64,000 nucleotides of DNA from sequence record NC_025447.1, one strand, 5' to 3'. The notes beneath the pieces are model-generated. The model worked only from the letters and a program-made list of their open reading frames with translations, searched no databases and was not told where the DNA came from. Below, one piece after another: positions 23,692-58,095 of this stretch. The position numbers were made by a program, and so were the translations under genes. The stretch's first letter is position 1. Every line of letters starts with the position of its first letter. This DNA is from Escherichia phage 121Q.

Positions 23692-23726
23692 ACGAAAAGG
23701 GAGAACATCAGTTCTCCCTTTTTTAT
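23690..23726. terminator. bidirectional terminator between convergent td and fibre genes
   Basis: AAGGGAGAAC-atca-GTTCTCCCTT flanked by A-run and T-run. Confidence 0.7.
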
Positions 23727-25690
23727 TATCTAATTGTTACCAATGTTCTTCCGTCGAAACGTACATCAGGAGTTGAAGGTATACTAAACACTACGTTAGT
23801 GCCGTTAAACGTAACGCTATCGACCTCAACACGAGTATAGACACCAGGACTAACCTGTTCCTGTATCTCTGCTGTGACGATGTTTGAGGCTGTTACAGTA
23901 AGGGTGTAGTAGTTACCACTTAATACCCAAGATGAAATTGTAAAAGCATCGGTTCTCACTGAACCTGAACCAATTGGAACCCATTGACCTTGAACTTTTT
24001 GCATTGAAGTACGCTCGGTATTGGAGTATGCAATCATACCATCAACGCCAACAGAGTTATCAATAGTAGCTAGTACTGGTAATTGGATACCATATCTATT
24101 AAAACGTGTTCTTATAGTTCCATTATCATAGATACTTACATCAGCATAATTACCCATTGATAGTTTTAAATCAGAACTAACTAATTGGATTGTACTTTGA
24201 TTAGTAGTACTTTCTAATGTAATTATACCATTAGCTAATAGATTTATATTTTTAAATTTATTAGTTGTTCCATTGAAATTAGTGTTTGCTGTAAACGTAC
24301 TAACTCCATTAACTGTAATTGTATCAGATGCAGCATCGCCTAATGTAGTATTACCTTGAATGTTCAAATTACCACTAGCAGTGATATTACTAGCTGATGT
24401 ATCACCAGTCAATGTACTTGTACCATCAACCACAATATTACCATGAAACGCACTTTCACCATTTTTAAATTCAACTTGTACTTTATTCATTGAACTAAAT
24501 GAAATAATATTACTACTAGCACTTAGTCCAACATTAGTATTGGTTGCATTATCAAATCTTAGTACTGGGGTTGATGCTGGGGTTGAAGTTGTTTGGTATA
24601 ATGTTAATGTTGAATTATTAATTCTAATACGTTCAGTTCCAGCAGTACTGAAACCAATTGCATCATCTGCTGGATGAAACATACCAGTATTAGCGTCTGA
24701 CCATTTTGCAGGATCATTACCTGGGTTATTGGTTGGATCAAATGGATTGTTATTAAATGTCAATGCTGGTGCTGCTGCACTACCATAGACCACACCAAAA
24801 CGCCCTGAGCCGCTTGTTCCATCATTATACATGGAATCACCAGTTCTACGTAAACACTCAATCACAACGTTATCTATGGATGTTTGAACGGTCCCTGCGT
24901 TTGTCCTAAATTGACGATGATTTGCAATCATTACAGTATTGTCATATAATACTGAAGCAGCGGAAATGCTTGTTCTTGACTGGCGTAGACGTATGTTTTT
25001 ATCTTCAGTTATAATAATCCAATCACCATCTGATAGTGCGGTTTGGTTCATTGGAACACCTGAAGCAAATGGTTTGGTTAAGTCAGCATCTGTTGCTAAA
25101 TTTTTAAGACCATCATGACCAGTACTAGGAATAGATGCAGGAATAATTCTAGCGAAAGCGTATGTTACTAGTTTAGCACCAGATATATTTGGATTAGAGT
25201 CAACATAATATAAAATTTCAATCCAATTACCTTGTCCAGTTGGATTTGTAGGTGTAAATGTAACAGGACTTGTTTGTGGATTATTTGCTTCATAATGGGC
25301 TTGTGCGGCATCCATAATACCACGAACAACATAATAATCACCATTTAGTGATGCTGCTGGTGCTGGTAGTGGTGTTTGTGCTAAAGGTGGATCAATATCA
25401 TCTGGGATAGGATTGTATGTACCAACAAACTGTAAACCACTAGTTACTGAATCTGGTAATTGGGAAGTAAGAAGTTTACCATTTGCATCTAAGTTTGCAA
25501 AGCGGCGATATGCCATAGTACCATCTTCAAAATCCAGAACACCTTCAAATGATTTCCATTCCTTATTGTATCTAATCATCCCTGATCTTATTACATCAGC
25601 GGTTTCTTTTGATGGTGCTTTCGGTAACTCTAAAAAAGATTTACTATCAATAATTACACCACCATCACCTCTAATTCGATTTATACTCAT
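23726..25690 (-). CDS. tail fibre protein
   Basis: 654 aa, S/T/N/G-rich strand repeats after a distinct N-terminal domain; late-promoter-like box and RBS upstream. Confidence 0.6.
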   Translation of the reverse strand: MSINRIRGDGGVIIDSKSFLELPKAPSKETADVIRSGMIRYNKEWKSFEGVLDFEDGTMAYRRFANLDANGKLLTSQLPDSVTSGLQFVGTYNPIPDDIDPPLAQTPLPAPAASLNGDYYVVRGIMDAAQAHYEANNPQTSPVTFTPTNPTGQGNWIEILYYVDSNPNISGAKLVTYAFARIIPASIPSTGHDGLKNLATDADLTKPFASGVPMNQTALSDGDWIIITEDKNIRLRQSRTSISAASVLYDNTVMIANHRQFRTNAGTVQTSIDNVVIECLRRTGDSMYNDGTSGSGRFGVVYGSAAAPALTFNNNPFDPTNNPGNDPAKWSDANTGMFHPADDAIGFSTAGTERIRINNSTLTLYQTTSTPASTPVLRFDNATNTNVGLSASSNIISFSSMNKVQVEFKNGESAFHGNIVVDGTSTLTGDTSASNITASGNLNIQGNTTLGDAASDTITVNGVSTFTANTNFNGTTNKFKNINLLANGIITLESTTNQSTIQLVSSDLKLSMGNYADVSIYDNGTIRTRFNRYGIQLPVLATIDNSVGVDGMIAYSNTERTSMQKVQGQWVPIGSGSVRTDAFTISSWVLSGNYYTLTVTASNIVTAEIQEQVSPGVYTRVEVDSVTFNGTNVVFSIPSTPDVRFDGRTLVTIR

Positions 25691-25718: not shown

Positions 25719-25774
25719 TGATGTATTTATTTTAGTTAAAAGAAAAGGCCAAGCATAGGCTTGACCTTAAAAAA

Positions 25775-26554
25775 TTAACGTATACGTTCAGGAATATCAA
25801 CACCTTCATATACCCAAGTTGCAGCTTGTTGTGCCTTATAAATTGCATCAGGATCTAAATCATCAACTGCATCAATTGCTGCACACTGATTGTCACATTC
25901 TGTAAACAATTGCTCAATCATAGCAAAGGCTCCAGTGTATAGTTGTGTCATTTCAGTAGCAGATAATTTTACAATTGCGTCATCAAGAAAAATAGAAACA
26001 CTTTCAGAACCTGAAGTGACTTGTGTATAGTAATTAAGAAGCATTTGACGACCAGACATATCAGTACTGTAACGATGACCATTGAACATATAACCAGAAT
26101 TCATACGATTTGTACGTTCTGATATAGTTCTTGCTTTTAAATCAACTTTAACATCTGCTATTGGCATATCAATATAATGATATGTTTTAAGAACAGTTAG
26201 TGCTTTATATTCTTCGGTAGCGTCTTCTAAAAATTCAACAATAGGTTGATTTTCATCTTTTAATTTAATAAACTCCAACGGTTGTTCAATAGCATTAACA
26301 TTTCCAACATTTTTATACACTAACCACCAAAAACCTTCTTCTTTTCTAACAGCATCATTAGGTTCTACTGGGGAACCATCTTTACTTGAAATACCATAAA
26401 GAGTTCTAATATCACTATAAAGATAACGATAGGTTTGTGGATCTTCTGGTGTTGCACCAGGACGTTCTTTAAGTCCTTTTACACCAATTGGATTGGAAAT
26501 AATGTTTCCCAATTCATAATTTTCTTTTGAATTTCCTTTCACATATGTGAACAT
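25775..26554 (-). CDS. hypothetical protein in fibre locus (possible fibre accessory/assembly protein)
   Basis: ORF with GAGGTAG RBS; context only. Confidence 0.45.
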   Translation of the reverse strand: MFTYVKGNSKENYELGNIISNPIGVKGLKERPGATPEDPQTYRYLYSDIRTLYGISSKDGSPVEPNDAVRKEEGFWWLVYKNVGNVNAIEQPLEFIKLKDENQPIVEFLEDATEEYKALTVLKTYHYIDMPIADVKVDLKARTISERTNRMNSGYMFNGHRYSTDMSGRQMLLNYYTQVTSGSESVSIFLDDAIVKLSATEMTQLYTGAFAMIEQLFTECDNQCAAIDAVDDLDPDAIYKAQQAATWVYEGVDIPERIR

Positions 26555-26618: not shown

Positions 26619-29600
26619 TTAAGCAGTACGTTGTGCAATAAACATATCTGTTACTGGACTCACACCGTCATAAATGACTTGGTAGATAGTTACAGAGTTT
26701 GCAGTTTTGTTCAGTGTGCCATCAACAACCGCATAAGTACCATCAGTAGTAAAGTTTCTATTACCTGTTGCATCTTGTTTCACATAAATGTATACTGAAG
26801 ATGCTTTACCACCACCGATTAGACCAGTGATTGGTGCTAGAGTGGTATCTTGATCTAGAGTGATAAAGTATACGTTGCTAGTACCGTCTGGGGTCCAAGT
26901 ACCAGTTGGTGCGATAACAGAAGAAGTTACTTGATTAGGAATAACATCATATTTTTTAGTAGTTACTGTTGTAGTAGTTAGGTCAGCATTAGTAGTTGTT
27001 AATTGACCAGTTACAGTTACATCTTTATCAAATACTGCATTTTCTTTGAAAGAAGATGTTGCATTGACAGTTAATGTATCAGCAGCAGCGTCACCTAAAA
27101 CAACACTACCATTTGCAGTCATTAAACCAGTAACAGTTAAAGTACCACCGATTGTTGCTGCTCCAGTAACAGATGCACTAGCAAGTGTTGCTGCACCAGA
27201 AGTAGTAATGGTAGTTACTGAAGTTGCTGCTAGGGTTGCAGTACCTGTTGCAGAAATATCACCACCAACAGTTAGGTTACCAGAAGTAATTCCAACGGTT
27301 CCAGTAATGTTAGCACCACTTGACATTGTTACTGCACCACCAAATGAACCAGTAGTAGTTACTTCAAGGGTGTTCCCTTTTAGTAGACCAGTTGCAGTAA
27401 TACTTGTACCTGCGGTAATACTAGTACCAGCAGCAACACTGTTGGTTGCAGTTAATGATTTAACAGCCACGTCAGAGTTTGCTTGGTTTAGTGTTGCGTT
27501 AAGTAGACCAGTTACTGTAAAGTTACCGTTGTTAACTACGTTACCATTGATTGTTAAGTTGTTGTTTTGTGAACCAACATCACCAATAGTTGCTGATTTG
27601 GAAATCAACTCTGCACCAGAAGTAATATTACCCGCTGCACTAATAGTGTCCGCCGCAACAACTGCATAAGGTTCAATTGTTTGACCACTAACGTCAATAT
27701 CAGCGTTGATACCACCATCTACACGCAAGGAGCCAGCAATGTAAGTATTAGGGAAAATCTGAACTGTCTCTGGTTGATCGCCAATTTTAGTACCGATAAT
27801 AACATCAGCACCAGTTTTAACTGCACCAGAGGTTGTTAGAGAACCTAAAGTTGTAGCACCAGTTACACCTAATGTACCACCAATTGTTGCGTTATTAGTA
27901 ACTGCTAACGCAGCACCTTCACCATTAAGAGCGATTGATGGAGCAGATACTGCACCAGTTACGCCTAATGTGCCACCAATTGTTGCGTTGCCATCTGAAT
28001 GTAGAGTTGTAGCTACAGAAAGACTGTTAGCAACTACATCAGTACTAGCTAAATCCAATGCACCTGGGGTTAATGTACCAGTAATGTTAACATTATTACC
28101 AAAGGTCGCTGCACCAGTCACATCTAGTGTAGTACTAAATGTACCAGATGTTGCAGAGATTGCACCTGAATCTAGTGATCCAACAGTTGCTTTACCAGTT
28201 ACACCTAAAGTTCCACCAACAGTTCCATTTGTGGTTACATCCAATGTACCAGTACTTAGTTCTTGTGCGGTTACCTTACCGGATGCAGTAACAGTTGAAG
28301 TGGAAACACCACCAGTTAGAGTACTAGCACCAGTAACACTTAATGTGGTTGCCGCAGTTACGCTATTCACACTAAGATCAGCACCGGATAAGTCCAAACC
28401 ACCTTCAGGAACAAATACACCCTTAACAGTTAGTTTTTGTACTGTACTATCACCTGTTACATCCAATGTAGAAGCAGTTAAACCACCATTCATACTTGCT
28501 GCACCAGTAACACCTAGTGTAGTGGTTACAGTAGCACTATTAAGTGTTGAGCTACCAGAAATATTAGCACTAGAAGCAGTAATAGTTCCAGAATCAACTT
28601 GTATACCACCAGCAACAACCTGAATTCCACCAGCATTAACTGTTAGTTTACCAGCAGTATTCAATGTATTTGAAACTGTTGTTGCACCAGTTAAAGTTGT
28701 AGTGCCAGTTACACCTAAGTTACCAGAAATAGATGGACTACCTGTAATGTTACCAGTAGTTAGTATCAAATCAGTACCTACGGTAGTGGAGCCAGTACTT
28801 TCTAGTGTTACACCGACGATGTTTGCAGAACTTAGGTTAATAGTACCATCAACAGTTAAGTTACCTTGAACGGTTGCATCACCTAGAGAAGTTAATGTCT
28901 TCACAGACACATCAGTTGTGCTAAGATCAATAACACCCGCAGTTAGTGTTCCAGATACTGCTAAATTACCAGTAATCGCGGTATTTTTAGTAATGGATAC
29001 ATTTTCTGCCGCTGAAGTAATAGAACCAACAGTAAGTACACCACCAACAGTTGCGTTATTAGTTACATTTAGAGCAGTTCCAACACCAGATAGTGTTGCT
29101 GACCCACCAGTAATTGCACCTGAGATTGAAGCTGTTGCTGCTGAAACATCACCAGAAACTACTGCATTTGTTGCATTTAGAGCAGACACTGTAACTTCAG
29201 TACTTTGAACTTTAGGTAGAACGTTGATACCTTCTGCACTACTAACTGTAATAATACCAGTACTTGTTAGAGATTTAACAGATACATCAGCACCACTTAA
29301 ATCAACTGTACCAGAAACAACAAGATCTCCACCAATATTTGCTCCAGCGGTAGTAGTAATGGATTTTGCACTTACATCAGTTGTGCTCAAATCAATTGCA
29401 CCTGGTGTTACTGTACCAGAAACTGTTAGGTCACCAGTAATAGATGTATTATTGGAAATAGATACACCATCAACGTTACTAATTGTTGGGGTTTCTACAG
29501 AAACTGCTTTAACTTTACCTGAAGAAGTTACGTCAGCTACGGTAGATGCACCAGTAACATTCAAATTAGTAATATTTGCAGTTGTTGAACCAAGGGTTGC

Positions 29601-32144
29601 AATAGTTGCATCAGTACTTTGAAGTTTAGGTAGAACACTACTAATTGTGGATTCATTACTAACAATTGCACCAGTACTAGTTAAAGATTTGACAGTAACA
29701 TCAGCCGTAGTAAGATCTACTGTACCATTAACAGTTAGGTTACCACCAATAGTTGCACCAGCAGTAGTAGTAATGGATTTAGCATTAACATCAGTTGTTG
29801 CTAGATCGATAGAGCCTGGAATAACTGCACCAGTAACAGTTAGGTCACCAGTTACATTTGTATTATTGGAAATAGTGACACCACTTGCATTTGAAATGGT
29901 TGGGGTAACCAACGATGCAGTTGTAGTTTCACCAGTTACAGTTAAAGTTGACCCAACTAGAACAGATGAGCTTGAGTAAATTGTACCCAAATTAGCAGAT
30001 CCGGTAACAGTTATATCATCAGCATTAACAGTAGTTGCCGTTATGGTAGTACTATTAAGTACTGGAAGTACGTTAGCATTAACAAGATCATTACTTTTAA
30101 CAATACCAGAAGTAGTTAATGATTTAACATTAAGGTCGGCTGCTGATAAATCAAAAGAGCCTTGAACTACTAAATCACCACCAATAGTTGCACCAGCAGT
30201 AGTAGTGATTGATTTAGCATTAATATCGGTAGTGCTCAAGTCTAGAGAACCAACAGTTAAGCTACCAGTAATATCAACATTTTCTGTAAAGTTAGTATTA
30301 CCACTAATAGTTGGTGCAGTCAGAGTTGTTGCACTAATATTAGTACCGTTAATTGTTTGCCCACTTACAGTTCCACTCGCAGTGATAGTAGGGGCCGTTA
30401 CTTCAGTAGATGCACTAATTGTTGGTGCAGATACAGAAGTTGTACCAGTAATAGAACCAGAACTTACTGAACCAGCGGATAATGCACCAGAAAGAGTTGC
30501 AGTTGTACCAGCAATATCACCAGTAACAGTTAGTTTAGCACCCACGGTAGTGTTACCAGTACTTTCAAGTGTTGCACCTTTAATATTTGCTGCCGCGACA
30601 ACAGAATTAGGTGTTAGATCCTGCCCACTAACATCAACAGTTAGTCCAGTTACTGTTCCAGTAAATTCAACATCATTAAGAATTGCTTTACCACCAACTT
30701 GTAGGAATGGTGTACCTGGAGCTTGTGTTTCGTTACCAGTAATAGTTAGGTAATCTAGTTTGTTTAGACCGTTACCAGTAATACCATAAGTGGAAAGAGA
30801 AGCGTTACCGAAAGTTGCTGTTTTAAGAACGTTCAATGTAGAAGGAGAAACGACTTCTGATTGAACTTCGTTAGGTAGAATAACTGTTGGGCGTTGACCT
30901 GGTGCAGTATATCCAAAACCTAGTTTCACTGCCGCATCTTGACTATTTTGACCTAAGCTGATAGCTTTAAAGGATGCAGTACTGTTATAACCAGTAATAT
31001 TAGAACCAAGAGTAACACCACCAACTAATGAAGTTACACCAGTAACGTTCAAAGATACTGCATTAATATCGTCTAGTTGGAACGTTCCACCAAGAAGACC
31101 AGAAACATTAATGTTATTAAAATTAGCAGTACCAGTACTTTCGATATTTGGAATAGTTGCAGTTCCGGTTACTTCAAAGTCAGCAACTTTAGTTTTTCCT
31201 TTTTGAACTTCTAATAGTGGTGTGTCTGGTGATTGTGTATTGTTACCAGAAACTGTTAGATAATCTAATTTGTTTAGACCATTACCAGTAATACCATAAG
31301 AAGATAATGACGCATTACCAAAAGAAGCAGAGGTCAATACTGTCAAGTTTGCAGGTGACATTAGCTCGGACTGAATTTCGTTTTGTAGAATAACAGTTGG
31401 GCGTTTACCAGGAGCAGTGTAAGGGAAGCTTAATCTGAAGGTTTGTGATTCAGAGTTAGAACCAATACGAATGTCTTTAAAAGTAGCAGTACTGTTAATA
31501 CCAGTTACGTTAGCACCGAAAGTTACTGCACCTTGTTGGTTAGATGCACCAGTAACGTTCAATGTTACTGCATTTAAGTCAGATAGATTAAACTCACCAC
31601 CAAGTGTACCACTAATTGTCACATCGTTAAATGTAGCAGTACCAGTACTACTAATATCTGTTGTACTTACATTAGTAATTTCTGCGGTATTAGCAGTAAT
31701 TTTATCAAATGCAGCAGTAGTCCCAACATCAGCAGTAATATTACCTTTAAATGCTGTTGTTTCAGCAACTTCTAAGTTTTTAACTTTAGTTGCTTGTAGA
31801 GTGGTTGTACCAGCAGTTTGTGTAAAATCAGAACCAACTGATACAGTACCGTTAAAGGTAGCGTTTGAATTAATTGTTGCTGTATCAGACCCGACAACTG
31901 CACTACCGATTGTAGTATTACCCTCAACACCAAGACCACCAGAAAGTGTTGCTTTGCCACCTACATCTAAAGTAGATGTAATGTTGGCAGTTGATGATTC
32001 AATGGCAGTAAAAGTTGCATTTGCAAAAGTTACAGTACCATTTACAGTTAGGTTATTGTTGAAAACAGCATTTCCTTTGACTAAAAGATCCTTACCAACC
32101 GTACCAGCACCAGTAATATCTAAGTCAGTTTTTATTGAGTACAT
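26619..32144 (-). CDS. large tail fibre protein (1841 aa) with internal tandem repeat arrays
   Basis: Thr/Ser/Gly/Asn-rich; two repeat families visible in protein and DNA; my hand count places the start codon 1 nt from the ORF-track value. Confidence 0.7.
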   Translation of the reverse strand: MYSIKTDLDITGAGTVGKDLLVKGNAVFNNNLTVNGTVTFANATFTAIESSTANITSTLDVGGKATLSGGLGVEGNTTIGSAVVGSDTATINSNATFNGTVSVGSDFTQTAGTTTLQATKVKNLEVAETTAFKGNITADVGTTAAFDKITANTAEITNVSTTDISSTGTATFNDVTISGTLGGEFNLSDLNAVTLNVTGASNQQGAVTFGANVTGINSTATFKDIRIGSNSESQTFRLSFPYTAPGKRPTVILQNEIQSELMSPANLTVLTSASFGNASLSSYGITGNGLNKLDYLTVSGNNTQSPDTPLLEVQKGKTKVADFEVTGTATIPNIESTGTANFNNINVSGLLGGTFQLDDINAVSLNVTGVTSLVGGVTLGSNITGYNSTASFKAISLGQNSQDAAVKLGFGYTAPGQRPTVILPNEVQSEVVSPSTLNVLKTATFGNASLSTYGITGNGLNKLDYLTITGNETQAPGTPFLQVGGKAILNDVEFTGTVTGLTVDVSGQDLTPNSVVAAANIKGATLESTGNTTVGAKLTVTGDIAGTTATLSGALSAGSVSSGSITGTTSVSAPTISASTEVTAPTITASGTVSGQTINGTNISATTLTAPTISGNTNFTENVDITGSLTVGSLDLSTTDINAKSITTTAGATIGGDLVVQGSFDLSAADLNVKSLTTSGIVKSNDLVNANVLPVLNSTTITATTVNADDITVTGSANLGTIYSSSSVLVGSTLTVTGETTTASLVTPTISNASGVTISNNTNVTGDLTVTGAVIPGSIDLATTDVNAKSITTTAGATIGGNLTVNGTVDLTTADVTVKSLTSTGAIVSNESTISSVLPKLQSTDATIATLGSTTANITNLNVTGASTVADVTSSGKVKAVSVETPTISNVDGVSISNNTSITGDLTVSGTVTPGAIDLSTTDVSAKSITTTAGANIGGDLVVSGTVDLSGADVSVKSLTSTGIITVSSAEGINVLPKVQSTEVTVSALNATNAVVSGDVSAATASISGAITGGSATLSGVGTALNVTNNATVGGVLTVGSITSAAENVSITKNTAITGNLAVSGTLTAGVIDLSTTDVSVKTLTSLGDATVQGNLTVDGTINLSSANIVGVTLESTGSTTVGTDLILTTGNITGSPSISGNLGVTGTTTLTGATTVSNTLNTAGKLTVNAGGIQVVAGGIQVDSGTITASSANISGSSTLNSATVTTTLGVTGAASMNGGLTASTLDVTGDSTVQKLTVKGVFVPEGGLDLSGADLSVNSVTAATTLSVTGASTLTGGVSTSTVTASGKVTAQELSTGTLDVTTNGTVGGTLGVTGKATVGSLDSGAISATSGTFSTTLDVTGAATFGNNVNITGTLTPGALDLASTDVVANSLSVATTLHSDGNATIGGTLGVTGAVSAPSIALNGEGAALAVTNNATIGGTLGVTGATTLGSLTTSGAVKTGADVIIGTKIGDQPETVQIFPNTYIAGSLRVDGGINADIDVSGQTIEPYAVVAADTISAAGNITSGAELISKSATIGDVGSQNNNLTINGNVVNNGNFTVTGLLNATLNQANSDVAVKSLTATNSVAAGTSITAGTSITATGLLKGNTLEVTTTGSFGGAVTMSSGANITGTVGITSGNLTVGGDISATGTATLAATSVTTITTSGAATLASASVTGAATIGGTLTVTGLMTANGSVVLGDAAADTLTVNATSSFKENAVFDKDVTVTGQLTTTNADLTTTTVTTKKYDVIPNQVTSSVIAPTGTWTPDGTSNVYFITLDQDTTLAPITGLIGGGKASSVYIYVKQDATGNRNFTTDGTYAVVDGTLNKTANSVTIYQVIYDGVSPVTDMFIAQRTA
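28821..30269 (-). repeat. tandem array (~3.5 x ~415 bp, ~138 aa) inside large fibre gene
   Basis: Repeating IDL(S/A)TTDV.AKSITTTAGA.IGG.L.V.G.VDL..ADV.VKSLTSTG units from residue ~626 to ~1108. Confidence 0.55.
30624..31646 (-). repeat. tandem duplication (2 x ~510 bp, ~170 aa) inside large fibre gene
   Basis: Protein units 167-336 and 337-507 align throughout (F.YTAPG.RPTVIL.NE.QSE..SP..L.VL..A.FGNASLS.YGITGNGLNKLDYLT). Confidence 0.55.
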
Positions 32145-32240
32145 TTATACCCTCCATTATAACCTTGTTAATATGTATATATTTAGTTTTATTATGCTGT
32201 TATCCAACAATTAATATGTTATTTGACAAAAGCAAATATA

Positions 32241-32281
32241 ATAAAAACCAGACTTATTTAGAACAAGTCTGGTTAATTTTT
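32241..32281. terminator. terminator between two minus-strand fibre genes (U-tracts on both strands)
   Basis: AACCAGACTT-9 nt loop-AAGTCTGGTT flanked by AAAAA and TTTTTTT. Confidence 0.55.
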
Positions 32282-33194: not shown

Positions 33195-35336
33195 TTATGG
33201 TAGGGTTATGTAAGTTACGGGTTGGGCAGCTTTTAATGCTGCACCAGCGGCAGTTGCTGTTATGATAGGATCTGCAATATCAATTCTATATACGTTGTTT
33301 ACAACATACACTGCACGAGTTATATACGTTCTCAAATCACCACCATTTTCACCAGCACCGGATATAATGATCTCAGTACCAGCAGCTTTTGCATATTGGT
33401 TTTCACCCCATGACACACCCAATGCTTCTATGTATGTTTGTCCTGCTACCGTTTGTCTAATTGTGTCATATTTTCCGAAAAAAGAACCACCAACAGTTAC
33501 AATATATTTTCCACCCGATTGTTTATGAATAATCGTGCCTTCAGAGAAATAGCGTCCCCCAGGAAAAGTATCGTATGGAATATAATATTGCTCAACTACA
33601 GGTATCAGTACTGGGCCACGGTGACCTGTACCATCGATTGCAGTTGTAACTTTAAAGTTATTAGATGATTGGTCTATTCTGTCTACATACATTTTAGAAA
33701 AACTATATTTTGAAACATTACAATCATCTTGAACAACACAGTTAGTCCAATTAGTATAAGTATATTTAGAGCGAGTATAGATACCACCACCTTCGCCTTC
33801 GGTAGAGAGGTGTTGACCAATTACATCTAATTCTTTAGTTCTAATATCACTAAATTTAGATGATGATGGCAAACCACGCCAAAGGATTTTAGAACAAGTG
33901 ATATTGCTCAATTCTGTATTATTTAACCAATTATCAGAACCGGAAGTATAAACAAGTATAGAAGACTCTGGAATATAGAGATTAGAAATTTTAAAGTTTC
34001 TAGGTGGTCCAGCAAAACGACCAGAAGTTACACCCCAGTTTATTGAAACCATTCTATTTGTGATAGAAGGATCATTAAGCAAATGACCAGTCAACCCATC
34101 AATAATGAATTCTTTCGAACCATAAGTTATAACACCAGCAGTGGTTAATCCAGTACCAACAGAAACTAAAGATGATGGATAAACTTCATTATTAAGTATT
34201 TTAAAGTCCATTCCTAATTCAACGTGTATACATTGTCTAACATTATATAGTCTGTTATTTTTAATAACAAAGTTTCTGACATATTGTGTATCTGGTGCAT
34301 CTAAACCATAAGGACCAGAACCAGCAACGCCAATACCAATGCCCCAGTTTGAAAGTGGGATTGGAGCGTTAGAACCATCAACGTTTTCAATTACGTTTCC
34401 TTCAATCACAAAACCATCAGGATAATGTGAGTTAATTACGTTTAGTTCAATTGCATCACCATAGATATCATGAATATGGTTATATGAATATCTACCAACC
34501 TTCATTTTCTCACCAGTACCTTGTTGAAGAACACCATACTTACATTGGGTCATTTCATTAAAGCAAAAATCTATTGTTCCTGGTTGTGTCATACCTTGCA
34601 TTAAAAATGCAGCAGTACTTGTGATGTTTATAAATTTATTAAAATAAAACTTACCATCTCCACCGAAGAATTTTAAATAACATCCAGTAAGTGTTGCAAA
34701 TTGTATTTGGGAATTAATAACAGATACCATAGTACCACCGTTACCAGTAATAGTTCCCCCAAACCAAGTTACATCTTCTAGGTATATTGCAGTTTTGATA
34801 CGGTAATTACCACCAGCCTGAATTTGGATTTTATTTTCTTTAGCATAAGCAGCACATAAATTTACAGCAGCAGTGTCATCAGTTTCGCCATCACCTTTAG
34901 CACCAAATTCTTCTGGTGTTATATAAAACTGGGCCTGTTGAACTGTACCTCCAGTAATAAGTCCGATGAAATCACCACCATTTTTACTGGATAGAACTTT
35001 TTTATTAATGTATAATGATTTTACCCATGTACCATTACTTTTTGCAAAAATATCAACAATACCATCTTCATCAATTTGAAAATACGTATTATTGTTCTTT
35101 CCTACATCATCGGTAGGGGGTACAACACCAAATAATGCATTAGGGTTATCTTCAAGATATTTTACGTTAACTGCTGAATTAGGGTCAGATGAAGTTCCTA
35201 CCTTCAGTGGTAGGAACTGTTCTCCTAGATAATCTTTTATAGAAACTGAATCATTGATAAAATTTATTGAAGCACCTTTTTTCCCCAATATGAATTTGGG
35301 CTGCATAGTTCCTTCAAAATTAGAAAATACTGCCAT
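33195..35336 (-). CDS. tailspike with pectate-lyase-superfamily beta-helix (putative polysaccharide depolymerase)
   Basis: Shared N-terminal anchor, then EEFGAKGDGETDDTAAV, the hallmark entry motif of pectate-lyase-like depolymerase domains. Confidence 0.7.
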   Translation of the reverse strand: MAVFSNFEGTMQPKFILGKKGASINFINDSVSIKDYLGEQFLPLKVGTSSDPNSAVNVKYLEDNPNALFGVVPPTDDVGKNNNTYFQIDEDGIVDIFAKSNGTWVKSLYINKKVLSSKNGGDFIGLITGGTVQQAQFYITPEEFGAKGDGETDDTAAVNLCAAYAKENKIQIQAGGNYRIKTAIYLEDVTWFGGTITGNGGTMVSVINSQIQFATLTGCYLKFFGGDGKFYFNKFINITSTAAFLMQGMTQPGTIDFCFNEMTQCKYGVLQQGTGEKMKVGRYSYNHIHDIYGDAIELNVINSHYPDGFVIEGNVIENVDGSNAPIPLSNWGIGIGVAGSGPYGLDAPDTQYVRNFVIKNNRLYNVRQCIHVELGMDFKILNNEVYPSSLVSVGTGLTTAGVITYGSKEFIIDGLTGHLLNDPSITNRMVSINWGVTSGRFAGPPRNFKISNLYIPESSILVYTSGSDNWLNNTELSNITCSKILWRGLPSSSKFSDIRTKELDVIGQHLSTEGEGGGIYTRSKYTYTNWTNCVVQDDCNVSKYSFSKMYVDRIDQSSNNFKVTTAIDGTGHRGPVLIPVVEQYYIPYDTFPGGRYFSEGTIIHKQSGGKYIVTVGGSFFGKYDTIRQTVAGQTYIEALGVSWGENQYAKAAGTEIIISGAGENGGDLRTYITRAVYVVNNVYRIDIADPIITATAAGAALKAAQPVTYITLP

Positions 35337-44549: not shown

Positions 44550-44584
44550 AGAAAAGGAGAGCATAATGCTCTCCTTTTTTTATT
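44550..44584. terminator. bidirectional terminator between ClpA-like gene and giant ORF
   Basis: AAAAGGAGAGCAT-aa-TGCTCTCCTTTTTTTT. Confidence 0.7.
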
Positions 44585-47500
44585 ACTTAACTAATAATAT
44601 ATTTTTAATATCATTACCACTAACTTGTAGACTATCAGTGTATACTGAAAGATCTATAGTGTAACTATTTTGTGTGTAACGTTTTAACATATCATAATTA
44701 CCTAAATTAATTCCATTGAAAGAATATGTAGTATTAAGTTTAAAATCATGTTCTGCACTATACATTACACCACGGAGTAAATTATTTGCATTTCTAACTT
44801 CAACTTTTTCATATCCAATCGATATAATATCATTCATGTTTGCGGCTGAACCGGATAAAACATTATTTCTAATACTATAAGGACTTATTGATTTAGGTTG
44901 AGAAACATAGGTTGTATTTTCTTCACTAATGGTTGTGATGTTAGTAACAGTACCACCAACAACACCGATATACATACCGTCAACCATTGGGAATCCATAA
45001 ACCCATATCCCTTCATTATTTCTAAACGGTTGAATAACACTTGAATCATATTCGATAACGTTGATTTCTAAACTATCAGTCATTTTAGTTCTTGCCAATT
45101 CACTAAGAACTCCCGCACCCGTAATTGGTAAGTTATAACCGTTATCGATAGTAATTCCATCAACATCAAATATTTCATTAGAGATTATCCAAACGTCAAC
45201 GTCATCTGGTGTTATTCCGTCATTGTACTTACCACCATTTAAAGTAGTATCGTAGAAAACATCATAATTAATTACATCAATGGTGTAATTTCTATTTTGT
45301 TCATACAATTTAATACCATTCTTGACAAATTCAGGGTCAGCAAATGTTCTAACACGAACAATGTTCAATGCTAGAGGCTGTACTGGCTCATTTTGTTGTG
45401 CAAGAGTGATGTTATCATAACGGAGAACTGCACCAGTACTCTCATCAATCAATTCAATCGTTTCCTTACCTGTATTTCTTACAGTGAATAGGATCGGAGT
45501 TGTATTGTTTTTGATGTTAGATACACGCAAGATTGTTTCCCATGTGTGATTTTGATATCTCACAAAATCTTCACCATCAGGAGTGAAAATCATCACCTTA
45601 TCACCATCAGATAGGTCATTGTCAACTATTTCTGCTTCAGTTAAGCTATTAATAGATCTCACACGATAGAAATATTTTTCATCAAACTTCGATGTTGTTT
45701 TATTAATATCATTTTCAATCTTAGCATATGAAGGAATACTTACAATTGCTTCTGTATGTTTATATGGATTGATAATTGCCATACCTTCAGTTTGATATCT
45801 GCTGTTATCACGTAATTGTACAAGAGATACATTGTCAAACCCATATCCATCAACTGTAAATCTAATTTGACCTACATCACGCCCAGAAGGGTTTATGTCA
45901 GATATATCCACAATATAAGGATCAACTTCATCATCTTTAACTTCCCATTTTATTGAAGAAGTTTGAGATTCCAATGCTAGGTTATCAAATGCATTCATAT
46001 CATTGAAGTACTTAGCTTCAGTAATACTATCAAGTATATATTGATAATCAGAATACATTGGATTATTTTGATCTAGTGGTAAATCATCAAGATTTATTTC
46101 AGCTAGTTCAACCATTTCACCATTTGTGATAAAATAATCTTCCATGAAATCATCAATACTTTGTTCATCAGGTATACTTTGATATACACCGTTAACATTT
46201 AAGTAAACATATTTTCGTGGAATCATTGTAATTGCATAGATATCAATTGGGGTCTTACTAAGAATCTCTTCAGCTTTTTCGTACTTATCAGTAGCGTCTT
46301 TGTCGAATAACCCTCTCATACCTGCTAATACGTGAATAGCATCAGTATAGAAACGGGTATCACCACCTACTTCATCATAACGATAAACATATACACCATA
46401 CTCAACTTCAAGTTTAACTTTTACTTCATAGTCTGATGCGTCAGGATTTTTATCTTTAATTAATGAAATGTATTTTTGATACAATTCACTGCTTATTTCA
46501 AAATATCCATAGTTATAATCATTACTAGAAGAAAAGCCTAATGGAAGTCTAGTACTAGGATTGTCATTATAAGTAAGTCCACTAAATCCACATCCAACTT
46601 CATCGTGAATTTTCTCATCACTTATATCTTTATAAAGTTTCAAACGGTTTGCCAATGTGTTATACTGAACATATTGTCTAAGGTCAGTAAACATATCGTT
46701 ATGCGTTGATTCTTTATAAACACGTTCCAATGTAGCAGTGAATTCATCAGTTGCTTCTAAATCTTCCGCATGGTCTTTATACCACTGGTTAACGCCATAT
46801 GCTGTTCCTAGTGTTACATCCAATTCTGGATAGTAGATTTGCATTTGATAAGCAATAAGAAGATCGAAAGTTTCTTCACTATATTCTGGGAAAGAATATA
46901 TATAACGTTGTAATTCATAGTTACTAACAGCATCCTTTTCATTGGATTGATATTTGTTATTAACACTTACTAATTCATTTATGCTTGCCAAATCTTCATT
47001 TGGTTTACACTGAATATTATCATAATGCATAATAATATCAATTTCTTGGAATCTTCTATTTGGTGTAACGAAATCACTTGGTAGTGAACCTACCTGTTCC
47101 CATTTTTGGGTAATTTCATTAAATTGAGCGTACTCATAATCCCAAATATCTTTTTCAGTTTTGATCCAAGAACCGTCAACGAAAATATATCCATTAGGAT
47201 CTAAATCATTACATAGACCTTTTATTAAATCATCATCAGATGTCTTTTGCTCTATTTGTGAACGAATTTTAGTTCTATAAGGTTTAACTTCTTCAAAATA
47301 TTCAACAATTTGATTAATCAAATTATCGTTTGAATAGTTTTGAACTAATGATTGTTCCAAACCAACAATATAGATATATGATGTTTTAAATACCCAATCC
47401 ACAACACTTTGTTCAACATGTACATATTTGACCATATCAAAAACAATTTCGCTTTGATGTAAATCGAAAGAATTTTTGAGTAAAGCTAGTGCTTTACGAA

Positions 47501-50500
47501 CGTTGATTTCACGATTGCTTAGTGATCCATTATCATTATGAACACTATAATCTGCGTAAAGCATATCATTGAGTTCAACTGTACTGTTTTCACGACCAAT
47601 CGCTTTCCAATAAATTGAATCGCGTGATTGTGATTTAATATACAATGTCCAAATGTTTTCACTATCGGTAACTCTGATAATATCGCCAACTTGGTAGTTT
47701 TTAGTATTAGCATCTTCTAAGCTTGACTCTTGTGTATAAGTCGTGTTACTATCATACCCAACATCATACCAATCAGCATATGACCAGTACTGAGTCATGT
47801 CCAATGAAGTTCCCAGTGATTCAACATAATCAGATTGTTTAATCATTTTATGTTGACCCTCACCTTTGTTCTCTAACGTTATAGTAACAACACTACCCGC
47901 GTTTGCTGGACTATTCATTAACTGAATATATCCATTTTCGTCGAAGTGAATAAAATAAACAGCACTAGAAGTTAATGGATTTGGTAGATATCCACTAGTA
48001 CTTAAAATAACAGCGTCATTTTCTTTAAATTTATCACTTTCAACTGCAATAACTAATTCATTATTGTAAGACAATACACGGAAAGAAACTTCATTCGGAT
48101 TAACTTCAGTGGTTTTAACATTAAACACATCTTCCATAACAACACTATTAGTGGTTATGTTTTGTGACCTATAATAATTATTAGCACTTTCTACAAAGTT
48201 TCTACGAGCTTCTATAACATTTTGGAACCAAGTTTTGTTTGAACCTAAACCGTTATCAACATCTGGATATAATAAATTAATCACAGAACCTGATTCAGTT
48301 GTTTCTTGACCAATTAGTGAGTTCCACATTGAATCCCAAATTAGTGGGTTAAAGTTATAGCTGTCACCTTCTTTACATAGTTGATACTGGTCATGTTTAA
48401 CAACTTCAGTACTATCCATGTAATAAGAAACAGTTAAAATACTGGTATCATCATTCACTTTAAATTGCATATTACTAAGAATAAACGAGTTTTCATTGAT
48501 TGGAGCGAACCAAGGAATGTTTAGCTGTGTTGGATCTTTAATAATACGAGCAATGTCAGTACATGATTTTGTTCTGGTATGTAGTGGTGGTACATAAATT
48601 GTATCACGTACCCAGAAATAGTATTTTGTCACATAACTATCAGTTGAACTATCATATTCCAAAAATGTACTATAATTATCTTCAAGTGCAGTTCCACTTG
48701 GTAGATACATAGTATTATTTTTGTTTTTCTTAGCAACATCTTTACAGTATTTGTCCCAGTTATATGGCTCAACTGGTGAACAAACCCACTCTAACACATC
48801 AATTGTACTATGTGGTAATAAACGACCCCAGTTGTAACGTTTGTATTCATTGGTTGCATCAATATCAACATTACCGTCTGCGTCATAAATTGCACGAGTA
48901 TAATCCAAATAAAATGCAGTGCTAGTGTTCCACCATACTTGACCAACTTTATCAGCACCCCAAGCCTGGATTAACTCTCCATTACTATTATACTGTGCAG
49001 GATCAACTGGTGAAGTATATGTTACGTTTTGCATAGCCGCACCTGGAATAACACCATTAATTGGGTCATAAACGTTTAGATATAGCTCAGTAATGTTAGT
49101 ACGTTCATCATATGTCGTTGGACGATCAAATAAAGTACTTTGTGGTGCTTTAAAACTATATTTCTTGTCAATGTAAGCTTGACGTTCATCAGTACTGGCA
49201 AAACGTGATACATAACGATACAAACGTGGACGTGTATCTGGATCAGTAAATTCAATATCAATAGAAGTGTCAAATGGAACTACCATAACTTTAGGATCAG
49301 AACCAGCAGTATAATATTGACTTTCTACTGTTAAAGTATCTGGCATAAAGTTAGTTTCATCAACAAAATAATAATAATCACCATCTTCAAGTGGTACATT
49401 ATCAGTTAAAGTTACTTTACAAAATTGTTCAGCATACACATCGGTATTTTCAATAGGTGTTATAGAAACCATTTGCACATTAGTATCAACCAATTCAAAA
49501 ATGTTCCACAAACCATTACCGTCTTTAAACATCCACACAGATTCAGGATTTTCACCTTTACCATTAGTATAAGTTATGCGGTCATTATATGCAGTACTGA
49601 AATCTTTTGTTGTGTACGATACTTCATCCAATGTTACTGGACCAATATCTGGAAGTTGGATGTTTTCACTTCTTCCACTACGCATTGGGAATGAGAACTT
49701 ACCATTTGGACGTGTAATCCAACGAGGATCTTTACCCTGCTCACCGAAGTATACAATATGATTACCATTACCATTTGAAGTTGCATTTACATCAAAAGAA
49801 ACCATTTGAGGTTGTTGTTTAAATTGGTCATTGATTAGTTTAAATTGAAGGTTTTTCTTACCATCAATATTACCATATGTACCAATTTTAAATGCCCATT
49901 CTTGTAATGCTTTATATTCATCAGTGTCATATGATTTAGAAACACGAAGTACACGTTCTAAAACTTGGTTAGTACCTTTATCGTGAATGAATCCTTTATA
50001 GAAATCAACACGACTAACATCACTGCTAATCATACGCTGTAGATAATCACGAGATTGATAACCAATCAAATGGTTTGACAACTCTTGTAATTGTACATCA
50101 CTTACTGGAGTTTCACTATCATAATAATGTTGGAAATCCGACACTAATTTTTCAAATGATGGTAGTGTTCCAGCTTCCAAGATAATAAATCCAGGAGCTT
50201 GTAGGCGACCAGTCCATGAACCAGTAATATATCCATACATTTTAATTAGTTCTTGAATAGAACCATATGTTGGCTGATAAATGTAATCACCAAAAATAGT
50301 TTTATCATCAAAAATAACAGCATGTTCATATGAACACAAACTTAAACGAATCAATGCAATGCGTTTATTAGATTCTAAAGTTCTAACAGTGAAGATATTT
50401 CCAATACGAGAAGTTTCAATTTCATATTGGCGAATACCTTGGTTATTATCATCAAGTAATGACCATACACCACCATTATTTTGCGTAATAGATTGTACTG

Positions 50501-54554: not shown

Positions 54555-54590
54555 TTTTGGACTCCATATAATTCGTTCATTCATTTGATT

Positions 54591-57600: not shown

Positions 57601-58095
57601 GACAAATGAACTGTTCATTACTAGAATAAAGTTTTCATACCAGTTAGCATCCATCGGGTCATTCCAACGAATAATTTTATCTTTTAATGATTCATTAAAA
57701 CTATTACGAACATCTTGGTTTGTTTTAATTTCGGTTAATTTAGCAACTGCACGACCTGGATATGAGCGGCGTGGTGAGTAAGAAATCATTTTAGCTAGTT
57801 TTAGTACTGACGCACGACGAGTTGCAGTATCTAAAAAGTTTTCACGCGTGTTCAAATCCATACGAAATGCCAAGTTTTGTCCTAGCATAGAAATCGTATC
57901 TAAAATAAAAATAAACTGGTCGTTTTCGATCCAGTCGTTAAATGAATCTGGGTAAGTTGCACGTAGATAATCAATCATACTCTGACGGATAGTGTCGAAG
58001 TCATAAGCTGTTAGATTGATTTTATAAAAACTTTCATATACTTGAGTCCAATCCTCACCACTATATAAATTAGACTGTCTTTTTTGTTGTGACAT
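54634..58095 (-). CDS. baseplate wedge protein, J-like (T4 gp6 / P2 gpJ analog) with large extension
   Basis: Position downstream of gp25-like gene in the conserved W-J order; N-terminal region loosely resembles the Baseplate_J pattern; 1153 aa. Confidence 0.45.
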   Translation of the reverse strand: MSQQKRQSNLYSGEDWTQVYESFYKINLTAYDFDTIRQSMIDYLRATYPDSFNDWIENDQFIFILDTISMLGQNLAFRMDLNTRENFLDTATRRASVLKLAKMISYSPRRSYPGRAVAKLTEIKTNQDVRNSFNESLKDKIIRWNDPMDANWYENFILVMNSSFVSTNQFGNPVKRIDVNGVSRQLYRMNTIPMTAPSIPFIATVNGESMTFEVVNPDITSVGVEERHPEPQEQKYIVYQNDGNGFSSPNTGFFVYFVQGTLTYQDYQYAIREENRIQDINVDNINETDVWVQEINEDGIVRTKWTKVPSMESIAYNTVNRQLKTIFAVTTRDKDQITIKYPDSRSGVVPRGTFRVWYRVSNGKTYNIKTSEIQNKSVKYTYRTKTQSSYESSTLDIRFSLQYESDRAQSAETIEQIKARAPQMYYTQNRFVNGEDYNIAPLSLGNTVLKSKAINRIYSGQSRFIDINDPTGKYQNTDVFSDDGALYQENTQFNRSLLLPTTKTNASIVIDNIQPLIGENAVIQRYQAYPSNTIGIEIQQAWTPVYNSNYTTNTYGRILGSSGTVYGSYQVGTLIKFSNSGTTIWASVVSVLDNGFYVLSTSVPSGMQAIEYILPYRTRFNTVEVQSISAMLDKKTDFVIVHDKETTSWVPIEASTNDDTIVYNGNEVLIIINVKYTAETWEFDANGIEYIFVGGEKVRFYFVSSKKITDISTGTVQSDKIEILSSNTTSSSNSGLTSNIDFQIYDTIQQENGYLDGSRVIVTSRKVDSNGIPLEPNQFKEIVPTWTGTDALKYGGILVFQENSDFTISVLSLPNDTFTLLDSSWSYTMEQALAEPNAYKRTEFVRNNAIRSTTLSGLYSKGSGFLVGFNYDGKYYFIEQTVGNNNDRLGQLISNLTYSDDTGTVSPELAFYRAINNMGTNADENQKLDYYGYKDVTSQYTVKTNARTSIDFHWKHYAPDDNRIDPSRTNLIDMYVLTNSYKTEVDVWLKNNAVGSIPKPPTSVELKDMFKDVEQKIVISDSIIWHSAEYLPLFGNSAAEDYKADFKVVKLPNSTMSDDEIRQNVIALTNEYFNVDNWDFGESFYYTDLCTYIHSQLGRHISTIVIVAQNPNSKFGSLFEIPSRSDQIFLSTASVENVQIVNSLAKSNINIGS

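What the first reader, a model, noticed from the sequence alone, without database searches (positions are those of the whole stretch)
26619..32144. 1841-aa fibre gene built from two families of long tandem repeats
A ~510-bp unit is duplicated head-to-tail (about 30624-31646) and a ~415-bp unit occurs ~3.5 times (about 28821-30269), conserved at both DNA and protein level. Such repeats allow length variation of the fibre by unequal recombination and are a likely source of assembly errors. My hand count of the start codon was 1 nt off the ORF-track coordinate, which may itself reflect a local indel in this repeat region.
Basis: seen in the sequence. Interest (0 to 1): 0.45.

Follow-up and report, generated by a model that had tools for sequence, protein, structure and literature searches.

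The report
Modular repeat-built jumbo-phage tail fibre gene
This is the known 180-kDa virion fibre protein of an Asteriusvirus jumbo coliphage, built from old in-frame duplications of whole 110-170-residue modules whose number differs between related phages through unequal recombination; it is real and intact, but an ordinary kind of phage fibre evolution.

Summary
ORF 26619-32144 (minus strand, 1841 aa) carries a 170-aa unit twice (window 30630-31649) and a 138-155-aa unit three times plus a 72-aa partial copy (28779-30308). Self-similarity is far above shuffled controls.

The gene is 99.9-100% identical in at least seven independently deposited Asteriusvirus genomes. Its predicted mass, 180.376 kDa, matches phAPEC6 gp256, a "tail fiber protein" found in virions by mass spectrometry.

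The copies are old: 62-69% DNA identity, 46-61% protein identity, dS about 0.65-1.2. The longest exact repeat is 30 nt, so assembly error or a start-codon indel is not supported here.

JP4 and CRJP21 carry three A units, and the middle one is a clean A2-5'/A1-3' chimera. UB, PBECO4, JP4 and CRJP21 carry a young duplication (92% nt identity) of a third, 112-aa unit that is single in the window.

Both termini are the most conserved parts. The only solved relative is the long tail fibre of flagellotropic phage phiTE.

Where the fibre sits on the virion is unresolved: baseplate long fibre, or the roughly 119-nm "hairs" of these phages. Verdict: real, well explained, modest interest.

The parts
26619..32144 (-). 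Fibre gene, 1841 aa, 180.376 kDa. It corresponds to phAPEC6 gp256 and SHEFM2K M2K_0545.
   Evidence: ORF, translation, 100% identity to SHEFM2K, G17, Sharanji and E9.1, annotation, mass against the MS table, phrog_4549.
32150..32155 (-). GGAGGG ribosome-binding site, 5 nt upstream of the ATG.
   Evidence: Sequence read directly.
32246..32274 (-). Terminator-like hairpin (13 bp stem plus T run) between the upstream 298-aa gene and the fibre gene.
   Evidence: Pattern scan; consensus match only.
31650..32144 (-). N-terminal region, aa 1-165. It is conserved in all jumbo-phage homologues and shows a 6-residue hydrophobic period. It is the presumed virion-attachment end.
   Evidence: HMM hits in P0001-P0023 but not in P0024/25; 44-83% identity; periodicity; sub-threshold bactofilin-like match.
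31140..31649 (-). Repeat unit A1, aa 166-335 (510 nt).
30630..31139 (-). Repeat unit A2, aa 336-505 (510 nt). It is 61% aa identical to A1, and 62% nt identical over the whole unit (69% in the blastn core).
   Evidence: It is homologous to phiTE long tail fibre residues 205-445.
30309..30629 (-). Linker shaft, aa 506-612. It opens with the hinge-like motif DVSGQDLTPNSV, which overlaps the last two residues of A2 (motif at aa 504-515).
29874..30308 (-). Repeat unit B1, aa 613-757 (435 nt).
29460..29873 (-). Repeat unit B2, aa 758-895 (414 nt).
28995..29459 (-). Repeat unit B3, aa 896-1050 (465 nt).
28779..28994 (-). Partial unit B4, aa 1051-1122 (the first 72 positions of the B profile).
   Evidence: hmmsearch E 1.9e-16.
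28218..28778 (-). Middle shaft, aa 1123-1309.
27882..28217 (-). Unit C, aa 1310-1421 (336 nt). It is single here but tandemly duplicated (92% nt identity) in UB, PBECO4, JP4 and CRJP21.
26970..27881 (-). Distal shaft, aa 1422-1725, with a 6-residue hydrophobic period and a second hinge-like motif at aa 1484.
26622..26969 (-). C-terminal domain, aa 1726-1841. It is a roughly 100-aa beta-sandwich and the most conserved part of the protein. It is shared with the phiTE long tail fibre and with many phage fibre C-termini.
   Evidence: AF2 pLDDT 86-93; BFVD matches; PDB sequence match to 9CUY_g residues 612-792; conservation.
25775..26554 (-). Downstream 259-aa DUF4376 protein, probably co-transcribed. 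Its CBB counterpart is a virion protein.
   Evidence: Pfam PF14301, E 3e-8; phrog_17968; CBB_225 is syntenic and MS-detected.
25745..25768 (-). Terminator-like hairpin after the 259-aa gene.
   Evidence: Pattern scan.

Best explanation
The ORF encodes a very long structural fibre of an Asteriusvirus (PBECO4/121Q/phAPEC6-type) jumbo coliphage. It is most likely an intertwined trimer.

The protein is a chain of modules: a conserved N-terminal end (aa 1-165), two 170-aa A modules, a linker, three and a half B modules of about 140 aa, more beta-rich shaft that includes one 112-aa C module, and a conserved C-terminal beta-sandwich of about 100 aa.

The long repeats are in-frame tandem duplications of whole structural modules. 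They are old (synonymous sites near saturation) and have been kept under purifying selection.

Module number still changes in the genus by unequal homologous recombination between neighbouring copies, with the crossover in the best-conserved core. Each event lengthens or shortens the fibre by one module, which I estimate at about 11 nm for A and 7 nm for C.

Shown here: gene integrity, the repeats, their age, copy-number polymorphism, the chimeric copy, and presence in virions (published MS). Inferred: trimeric beta-helical shaft, total length of about 100-120 nm, the N-terminus as the anchor, the C-terminus as a conserved interface or tip, and a role in adsorption that may depend on flagella.
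For: Identity and expression:
- The gene is 99.9-100% identical in seven Asteriusvirus genomes.
- The predicted mass of 180.376 kDa matches phAPEC6 gp256, 180.38 kDa, 15 peptides in purified virions.
- The syntenic CBB_226 is also MS-detected.
- phrog_4549 'tail fiber protein' matches at E 9e-227.

Repeats and their age:
- The repeats are documented.
- For A1/A2, dS is 1.03 and dN 0.41. For B2/B3, dS is 0.65 and dN 0.27.
- The two-copy A array is present in homologues only 31-43% identical to the query.

Copy-number change:
- Orthologues are 1827-2129 aa long and differ by blocks of exactly 170 and 112 aa.
- The JP4 middle A copy is 90% identical to A3 over nt 1-330 and 92% identical to A1 over nt 331-510. 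The switch lies where A1 and A3 are 28/30 identical.
- The two C copies in UB are 92% identical in DNA.
- A neighbour-joining tree of A units shows at least three independent third-copy gains.

Fibre nature:
- The only PDB sequence relative is phiTE_241 (9CUY chain g). It is a trimeric long tail fibre attached to the baseplate, predicted to be 512 A long for 793 aa.
- The C-terminal domain is predicted confidently and matches the C-termini of many phage fibres.
- The hydrophobic pattern has a 6-residue period.

Flagellum link:
- SHEFM2K, which carries the identical gene, is reported as flagellotropic (cited in PMC11895373).
- fENko-Kae01 is flagellum-specific, and its single long tail fibre is a homologue.
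- phiTE is also flagellotropic.
Against: - No structure was obtained for the repeat modules. The AF2 monomer model of aa 150-900 has mean pLDDT 49.5, so the trimeric beta-helix and the nm estimates rest on analogy with phiTE.
- The N-terminus shows no similarity to the modelled baseplate-binding N-terminus of the phiTE fibre. The attachment site is therefore unknown.
- EM of phAPEC6, CBB and fEgEco12 shows only short baseplate fibres. That fits poorly with a roughly 100-nm baseplate fibre.
- The JP4 chimera could also come from gene conversion, or from exchange with another phage, rather than a single intragenic crossover.
- The flagellum link is guilt by association. The phiTE authors assign flagellum binding to the short fibre, and non-flagellotropic rV5-like phages also carry the shared domains.
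Confidence: 0.8

Rival explanations
1. The protein is not the baseplate long tail fibre implied by the database names. It is instead the subunit of the roughly 119-nm hair-like whiskers that decorate the sheath (three rings) and the capsid of phAPEC6-, CBB- and fEgEco12-type phages. Alternatively, it is a long fibre that lies folded up along the sheath and looks like hairs in EM. Repeat copy number would then set hair length.
For: - EM shows only short baseplate fibres (28.6 nm in CBB) plus 119 +/- 10 nm hairs with small terminal knobs. Their gene products are explicitly unassigned.
- Scaling from the phiTE fibre (793 aa, 512 A) gives about 119 nm for 1841 aa and about 100 nm for CBB_226 (1553 aa).
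- RaK2, which is not described as hairy, is reported to lack a CBB_226 homologue.
- The weak fold resemblance of the C-terminal domain is to the Pa223 capsid spike (probability 0.85 but E 1.1).
- The phi92 paper reports the same resemblance for its gp140 and gp151. I did not check whether those two proteins are related to this one.
Against: - The only solved relative is anchored on a baseplate.
- GAP32 has the homologue, but hairs have not been reported for it.
- The length scaling relies on a predicted model.
- Other large virion proteins are equally unassigned: the 3333-aa gp245 and the 105-kDa gp314.
Confidence: 0.3
2. The repeats, or the single-copy state of unit C, are assembly artefacts. 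The 1-nt start discrepancy would then mark a real indel.
For: The PBECO4 record is cut inside this gene. Its two ends overlap by about 580 nt at 99.7% identity, at the C-unit duplication. Some records have the orthologue split into several CDSs.
Against: - The sequence is identical in SHEFM2K, G17, Sharanji and E9.1, and differs by 1-2 nt in three more records.
- The longest exact repeat within the gene is 30 nt.
- The more distant ph0011 and UE-S1 also have two A units and one C unit.
- The frame is open for 5526 nt, and the predicted mass matches the MS entry.
Confidence: 0.02
3. The apparent long repeats are not duplications. They are convergent similarity produced by a Thr/Gly/Ser/Val/Ala-rich beta-helix composition.
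For: The composition is extreme: T 19%, G 12%, S 11%, V 10%, A 10%. Many short, low-identity repeat families are scattered through the gene.
Against: - Composition-preserving shuffles reach scores of at most 90, against 517, 386 and 288 observed.
- The copies align in register over 138-170 residues with almost no gaps.
- The signal is also present in DNA (E 1e-46 to 1e-56).
- Unit boundaries coincide with the indels between orthologues.
Confidence: 0.02
4. Copy-number differences arise mainly by import of modules from other phages (mosaic exchange), not by intragenic unequal crossover.
For: - The JP4 chimeric copy is only 90-92% identical to its presumed parents. An outside donor or an old event is therefore possible.
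- The downstream gene is swapped for an unrelated one in UB and CRJP21.
- A sister clade has two paralogous fibre genes in tandem.
The locus is clearly recombinogenic.
Against: Each half of the chimera is closest to the flanking copies of the same gene. The breakpoint is in register and lies in the conserved core. The duplicated C units are adjacent and 92% identical.
Confidence: 0.1

Closest known systems
phAPEC6 gp256, SHEFM2K M2K_0545 and CBB_226 ('tail fiber protein' or 'long tail fiber proximal subunit' of RaK2-like jumbo phages)
   Same: The gp256 and M2K_0545 genes are the same gene at 99.9-100% identity. CBB_226 is the syntenic orthologue. All lie between a tailspike-like colanic-acid-degradation gene and a DUF4376 gene next to thymidylate synthase. 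gp256 and CBB_226 were detected in virions by MS.
   Different: Nothing differs in sequence from the Asteriusvirus entries. The papers I could read do not describe the repeat architecture or the copy-number polymorphism.
Long tail fibre of flagellotropic Pectobacterium phage phiTE (phiTE_241, PDB 9CUY/9MJN chain g, 793 aa)
   Same: The two proteins share the A-type module (phiTE residues 205-445), the hinge-like motif, and the C-terminal 180 residues (domain E 5e-13). phiTE_241 is a trimeric fibre with an extended beta-helical shaft.
   Different: The phiTE N-terminal helical bundle and globular joint, which bind wedge and sheath-initiator proteins, have no counterpart here. phiTE has one A-type module and no B array, and it is less than half as long. 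Only its residues 14-171 are experimentally modelled, so the shared parts have no solved structure.
T4 gp34 and gp37 long tail fibre subunits (recalled from memory: internal repeated domains; recombination between conserved motifs reshuffles T-even fibre genes)
   Same: Both are very long fibre proteins made of repeated structural domains. In both, the gene is followed by smaller fibre-associated genes, and recombination within the locus alters fibres.
   Different: No sequence similarity was found: the PDB search at E <= 10 found only phiTE. The 'proximal subunit' label in databases is an annotation transfer, not a tested homology.
Bactofilin, left-handed beta-helix, and YadA-like adhesin repeats
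   Same: They share a beta-solenoid-like hexad periodicity and a Gly/Thr/Val-rich composition. Some database names use these labels.
   Different: Every such match is below the family threshold: bactofilin scores 15-19.5 bits against a cut-off of 27.9, and no YadA family is detected at E <= 1.

Membership tests
PHROG phrog_4549 (tail fiber protein) | Significant match to the family profile. | tested here: met
   E 8.9e-227, 756 bits, 7 stretches.
Asteriusvirus gp256-type virion fibre | Orthology by sequence and synteny, and presence in the virion. | tested here: met
   100% nt identity and the same neighbours. The mass equals that of the MS-identified gp256. Virion presence comes from the literature and was not tested here.
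phiTE/Vequintavirinae-type long tail fibre | Shared C-terminal domain. | tested here: met
   aa 1657-1838 align to 9CUY_g residues 612-792, i-Evalue 4.7e-13. tblastn finds the domain in rV5-, PVP-SE1- and CR3-like phages.
phiTE/Vequintavirinae-type long tail fibre | N-terminal baseplate-binding helical bundle and globular joint (phiTE residues 14-171). | tested here: not met
   No alignment to phiTE residues 1-168; the envelope of the first matched stretch starts at residue 169. Homologues P0024 and P0025, which carry PF26208, lack the jumbo-phage N-terminal region.
phiTE/Vequintavirinae-type long tail fibre | Trimeric assembly on the baseplate. | not testable with these tools
   Only a monomer AF2 run was available, and it gave low confidence.
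Pfam PF26209 / PF26208 (precomputed on homologues) | Match to the Pfam model. | not testable with these tools
   22 of 25 homologues carry PF26209. The local Pfam copy lacks the model: P0001 itself scores nothing.
T4 gp34 'long tail fiber proximal subunit' | Sequence homology to gp34. | tested here: not met
   No PDB chain other than phiTE at E <= 10. No Pfam or NCBIfam family matched. That the PDB holds gp34 fragments is my recollection.
Bactofilin (PF04519) | Score above the gathering threshold of 27.9 bits. | tested here: not met
   15.2 bits for the whole protein and 19.5 bits for aa 1-165.
YadA-like trimeric autotransporter adhesin / FliK (names used in some records) | Match to the YadA head, stalk or anchor families, or to the FliK families. 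| tested here: not met
   No such Pfam hit at E <= 1.
Intragenic tandem module duplication with unequal-crossover copy-number change | In-register tandem copies. Orthologues differ by whole units. A recombinant (chimeric) copy exists. | tested here: met

The most novel reading that the evidence does not exclude
This gene encodes the unassigned, roughly 119-nm hair-like whiskers seen on the sheath and capsid of Asteriusvirus and CBB-type jumbo phages, or long fibres stowed along the sheath. These would work as flagellum- or surface-entangling adsorption organelles. Module duplication and loss would tune hair length between isolates: 1841 aa in this phage, 1959 aa in UB, 2129 aa in JP4 and CRJP21.
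Probability: 0.25. Interest if true: 0.5.

Novelty: new member of a known kind. Interest (0 to 1): 0.27.

Why it matters
The protein is already in the databases and is known to be in the virion. The main value here is tidying up, in three ways.
- The gene is intact and the repeats are real.
- Names such as 'YadA domain protein', 'FliK' and 'T4 proximal subunit' are unsupported.
- The RefSeq exemplar PBECO4 lacks the gene annotation altogether.

The modest new content is a domain map, plus direct evidence from a chimeric copy that fibre length evolves in whole-module steps within one phage genus.

This gives a natural experiment. Isolates with 1841-, 1959- and 2129-aa versions can be compared by EM. 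That would show which appendage the gene builds, and so help identify the unassigned 'hairs' of these jumbo phages and their possible role in flagellum-dependent adsorption.

Tried and rejected
- Tandem Repeats Finder found only two trivial short arrays and missed both long families.
- A whole-protein self-blastp returned no off-diagonal hits, probably because of HSP containment. I replaced it with a diagonal scan and shuffles.
- Pfam, NCBIfam and PDB sequence searches gave no family above threshold except phiTE.
- The AF2 monomer model of aa 150-900 was unusable (pLDDT 49.5), so no fold search was run on it.
- The model of aa 1300-1841 was confident only for the last 100 residues or so.
- Foldseek against the PDB gave nothing significant (best E 0.8).
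- There is no paralogue of the gene elsewhere in the window.
- A single-sequence search with unit A2 against 1.84 billion representatives found only 14 proteins, all long fibre-like proteins or fragments. Unit A therefore could not be tied to any characterised domain.
- The SHEFM2K flagellotropy paper is not held and is cited second-hand.
- I considered a T4-like three-part fibre: this protein, the DUF4376 protein, and the variable 654-aa protein. The conserved C-terminus and the variable downstream gene support it. I could not test it.
Full report
**What the window is**

The gene at 26619-32144 is 100.0% identical over all 5526 nt to Escherichia phages SHEFM2K, vB_EcoM_G17, Sharanji and vB_EcoM_E9.1. 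It differs by one or two bases from ECO103 4-12-1, EC22.5-2 and phAPEC6. These are Asteriusvirus jumbo myophages of about 350 kb, the PBECO4/121Q group.

In SHEFM2K the gene is M2K_0545, 'tail fiber protein'. Its neighbours are a pectate-lyase-like 'colanic acid degradation' protein, a 298-aa virion protein, a 259-aa virion protein, a 654-aa protein and thymidylate synthase. The window has the same gene order.

**Checking the observation**

The ORF is uninterrupted: 1841 codons and an ATG start, with GGAGGG five bases upstream.

The DNA repeat finder reports copies spaced 510 nt apart, and a four-copy family spaced 465/414/435 nt apart. Self-blastn gives off-diagonals at offsets 510, 435 and 465, with E-values down to 1e-56.

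In protein terms there are two families.
- Unit A is aa 166-335 and 336-505, 103 of 169 residues identical.
- Unit B is aa 613-757, 758-895 and 896-1050, 46-54% identical, followed by a 72-residue partial fourth copy.

Ungapped diagonal scores are 517, 386, 288 and 232. Ten composition-preserving shuffles reached at most 90. The repeats are therefore real duplications and not a by-product of the Thr/Gly/Ser/Val/Ala-rich composition.

Tandem Repeats Finder missed both arrays because of its period limit and the low identity.

**Age of the repeats, and the assembly and indel worry**

The copies are old. A1 and A2 are 62% identical in DNA over the whole unit, with dS about 1.0 and dN about 0.41. 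B2 and B3 have dS 0.65 and dN 0.27. This indicates purifying selection on each copy.

The longest exact match between any two copies is 30 nt, which is harmless for modern assemblers.

The sequence is identical in independent isolates. The predicted mass of 180.376 kDa equals the 180.38 kDa listed for phAPEC6 gp256, which was found in purified virions with 15 peptides.

**Copy number in relatives**

I fetched the orthologues from UB, JP4, CRJP21, ph0011 and UE-S1. They are 1959, 2129, 2129, 1834 and 1827 aa long.

In a joint alignment, the only large indels are one block of exactly 170 aa and one of exactly 112 aa. Profile searches show three A units in JP4 and CRJP21 and two in the others, with three and a half B units in all six.

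The 112-aa block is a third repeat family, unit C (window aa 1310-1421). It is single in the window but tandemly duplicated in UB, JP4 and CRJP21, with 92% DNA identity between the UB copies.

A megablast with the JP4 gene sorts the close relatives into three length classes.
- Two A units and one C unit: the window and at least ten other records.
- Two A units and two C units: UB and PBECO4.
- Three A units and two C units: JP4 and CRJP21.

**Evidence for unequal recombination**

The middle A unit of JP4 is a chimera. Over nt 1-330 it matches the downstream copy at 297/330 and the upstream copy at 219/330. Over nt 331-510 it matches the upstream copy at 166/180 and the downstream copy at 109/180.

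The switch falls in the stretch where the parental copies are 28/30 identical. This is the product expected when a misaligned crossover joins the 5' part of A2 to the 3' part of A1.

Across the wider family (25 homologues) the architecture is always the same. It runs N-terminal region, then zero to three A units, then a variable run of B/C-like units, then usually the C-terminal domain. A neighbour-joining tree of A units suggests third copies arose at least three separate times.

**What the protein is**

It matches phrog_4549, 'tail fiber protein', at E 9e-227. No Pfam or NCBIfam model passes threshold. Bactofilin-like and left-handed beta-helix hits are sub-threshold.

The only solved relative by sequence is chain g of 9CUY/9MJN. 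This is phiTE_241, by elimination the long tail fibre of the flagellotropic myophage phiTE. That fibre is a trimer anchored to wedge and sheath-initiator proteins, with a predicted extended beta-helix 512 A long.

The shared parts are an A-type module, a hinge-like motif and the last 180 residues or so. The experimentally modelled N-terminal anchor of phiTE is not shared.

AF2 monomer models were poor for the repeat region (pLDDT 49.5). They were confident for a C-terminal beta-sandwich of about 100 residues. That domain recurs at the C-termini of many phage fibres in BFVD but has no significant PDB match.

The shaft shows a 6-residue hydrophobic period. A DL(S/T)xxD(V/I)xxKS(I/L)-like motif occurs nine times, often in pairs 30 residues apart.

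The two termini are the best-conserved parts. The C-terminal domain is 96-97% identical in ph0011 and UE-S1, against 79-92% for the other domains, apart from the short linker in ph0011 (98%). It is 70-72% identical in homologues that are 38-49% identical overall.

The 654-aa gene two places downstream is replaced by an unrelated gene in UB and CRJP21. This pattern fits a conserved scaffold or 'proximal' fibre better than a hypervariable receptor-binding tip, but that is inference.

**Where it sits and what it binds (unresolved)**

EM of phAPEC6, CBB and fEgEco12 shows six short baseplate fibres (28.6 nm in CBB). It also shows unusual hairs of 119 +/- 10 nm on the sheath and capsid, whose gene products are unassigned.

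Scaling from phiTE gives about 119 nm for 1841 aa. The syntenic CBB_226 is 1553 aa, which gives about 100 nm. The protein may therefore be the hair, or a long fibre stowed along the sheath.

SHEFM2K, with the identical gene, is reported to be flagellotropic (cited in PMC11895373). fENko-Kae01 is flagellum-specific, and its single long tail fibre is a homologue. phiTE is also flagellotropic. These are associations, not tests.

**Verdict**

This is a real, intact and already catalogued virion fibre gene. The long repeats are genuine ancient module duplications. The claim about recombination-driven length variation is borne out by relatives. The claims about assembly error and a start-codon indel are not supported for this window.

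Modular repeat evolution of fibres is a familiar theme, so interest is modest. The most useful lead is the set of natural length variants, which could identify the appendage this gene builds.

Noticed in passing
L007 (KC295538 340191-348113) and L013 (KC295538 1-3000): The PBECO4 reference record is linearised inside this fibre gene. Its last 580 nt or so repeat nt 71-649 at 99.7% identity, at the duplicated C unit. The fibre gene is not annotated there. Instead there are three antisense 'hypothetical proteins' and a 515-aa C-terminal fragment named 'YadA domain protein'. The SD-6_S16 and SD-2_S15 records also end or begin inside the gene.
   Followed up: partly
window 27046-27669, 27970-28623, 29224-29622, 30205-30753, 31471-32214 (+ strand): There are long antisense ORFs (110-247 aa) inside the fibre gene. 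They are most likely a by-product of its codon composition. At least the 247-aa one matches, by strand, position and length (744 nt), a 'gene' called in the PBECO4 annotation.
   Followed up: partly
L011 1501-6435 and 6585-9506+; L009 1501-6421 and 6571+: A sister Asteriusvirus clade (Ecwhy_1, vB_Ec-M-J and others) has two paralogous giant fibre genes in tandem. Both are 54-59% identical to the window protein from the N-terminus. In vB_Ec-M-J the first is split into two CDSs, and in the UNVERIFIED CMSTMSU record the two-gene fibre locus is annotated as seven or more short CDSs, six of them labelled FliK.
   Followed up: partly
window 23726-25690 (-): The 654-aa protein (phrog_14293, no known domain) is 92-99% conserved at its N-terminus in JP4, ph0011 and UE-S1. 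In UB and CRJP21 it is replaced by an unrelated 455-aa gene, although their fibre genes are 93-100% identical. This is a candidate host-range cassette. Its CBB counterpart, CBB_224, is an abundant virion protein.
   Followed up: partly
window 25775-26554 (-): The 259-aa DUF4376 protein lies directly downstream. It is bracketed together with the fibre gene by terminator-like hairpins at 32246-32274 and 25745-25768. Its CBB homologue, CBB_225, has 68% MS coverage in virions, so it is a structural partner rather than only a chaperone.
   Followed up: partly
window 33195-35336 (-): The 713-aa 'colanic acid degradation' protein has a pectate-lyase-like beta-helix and a match to the endosialidase N-terminal extension. 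It is a tailspike-type depolymerase two genes upstream of the fibre gene.
   Followed up: no
window 44583-54584 (-) and 54634-58095 (-): A 3333-aa virion protein (phrog_10938; phAPEC6 gp245, 381.9 kDa, MS-detected, function unknown) lies next to the 1153-aa baseplate wedge protein. It is another unassigned giant structural protein.
   Followed up: no
proteins P0001-P0025: Most homologues carry the precomputed Pfam families PF26209, and sometimes PF26208. These are absent from the local Pfam copy, so I could not learn their names or which domain they cover. PF26209 seems to track the C-terminal domain rather than unit A.
   Followed up: partly
window 27393-27433: A short 18-nt tandem repeat (2.3 copies) encodes AGTSIT-AGTSIT in the distal shaft. 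It is the only recent-looking microduplication in the gene.
   Followed up: no
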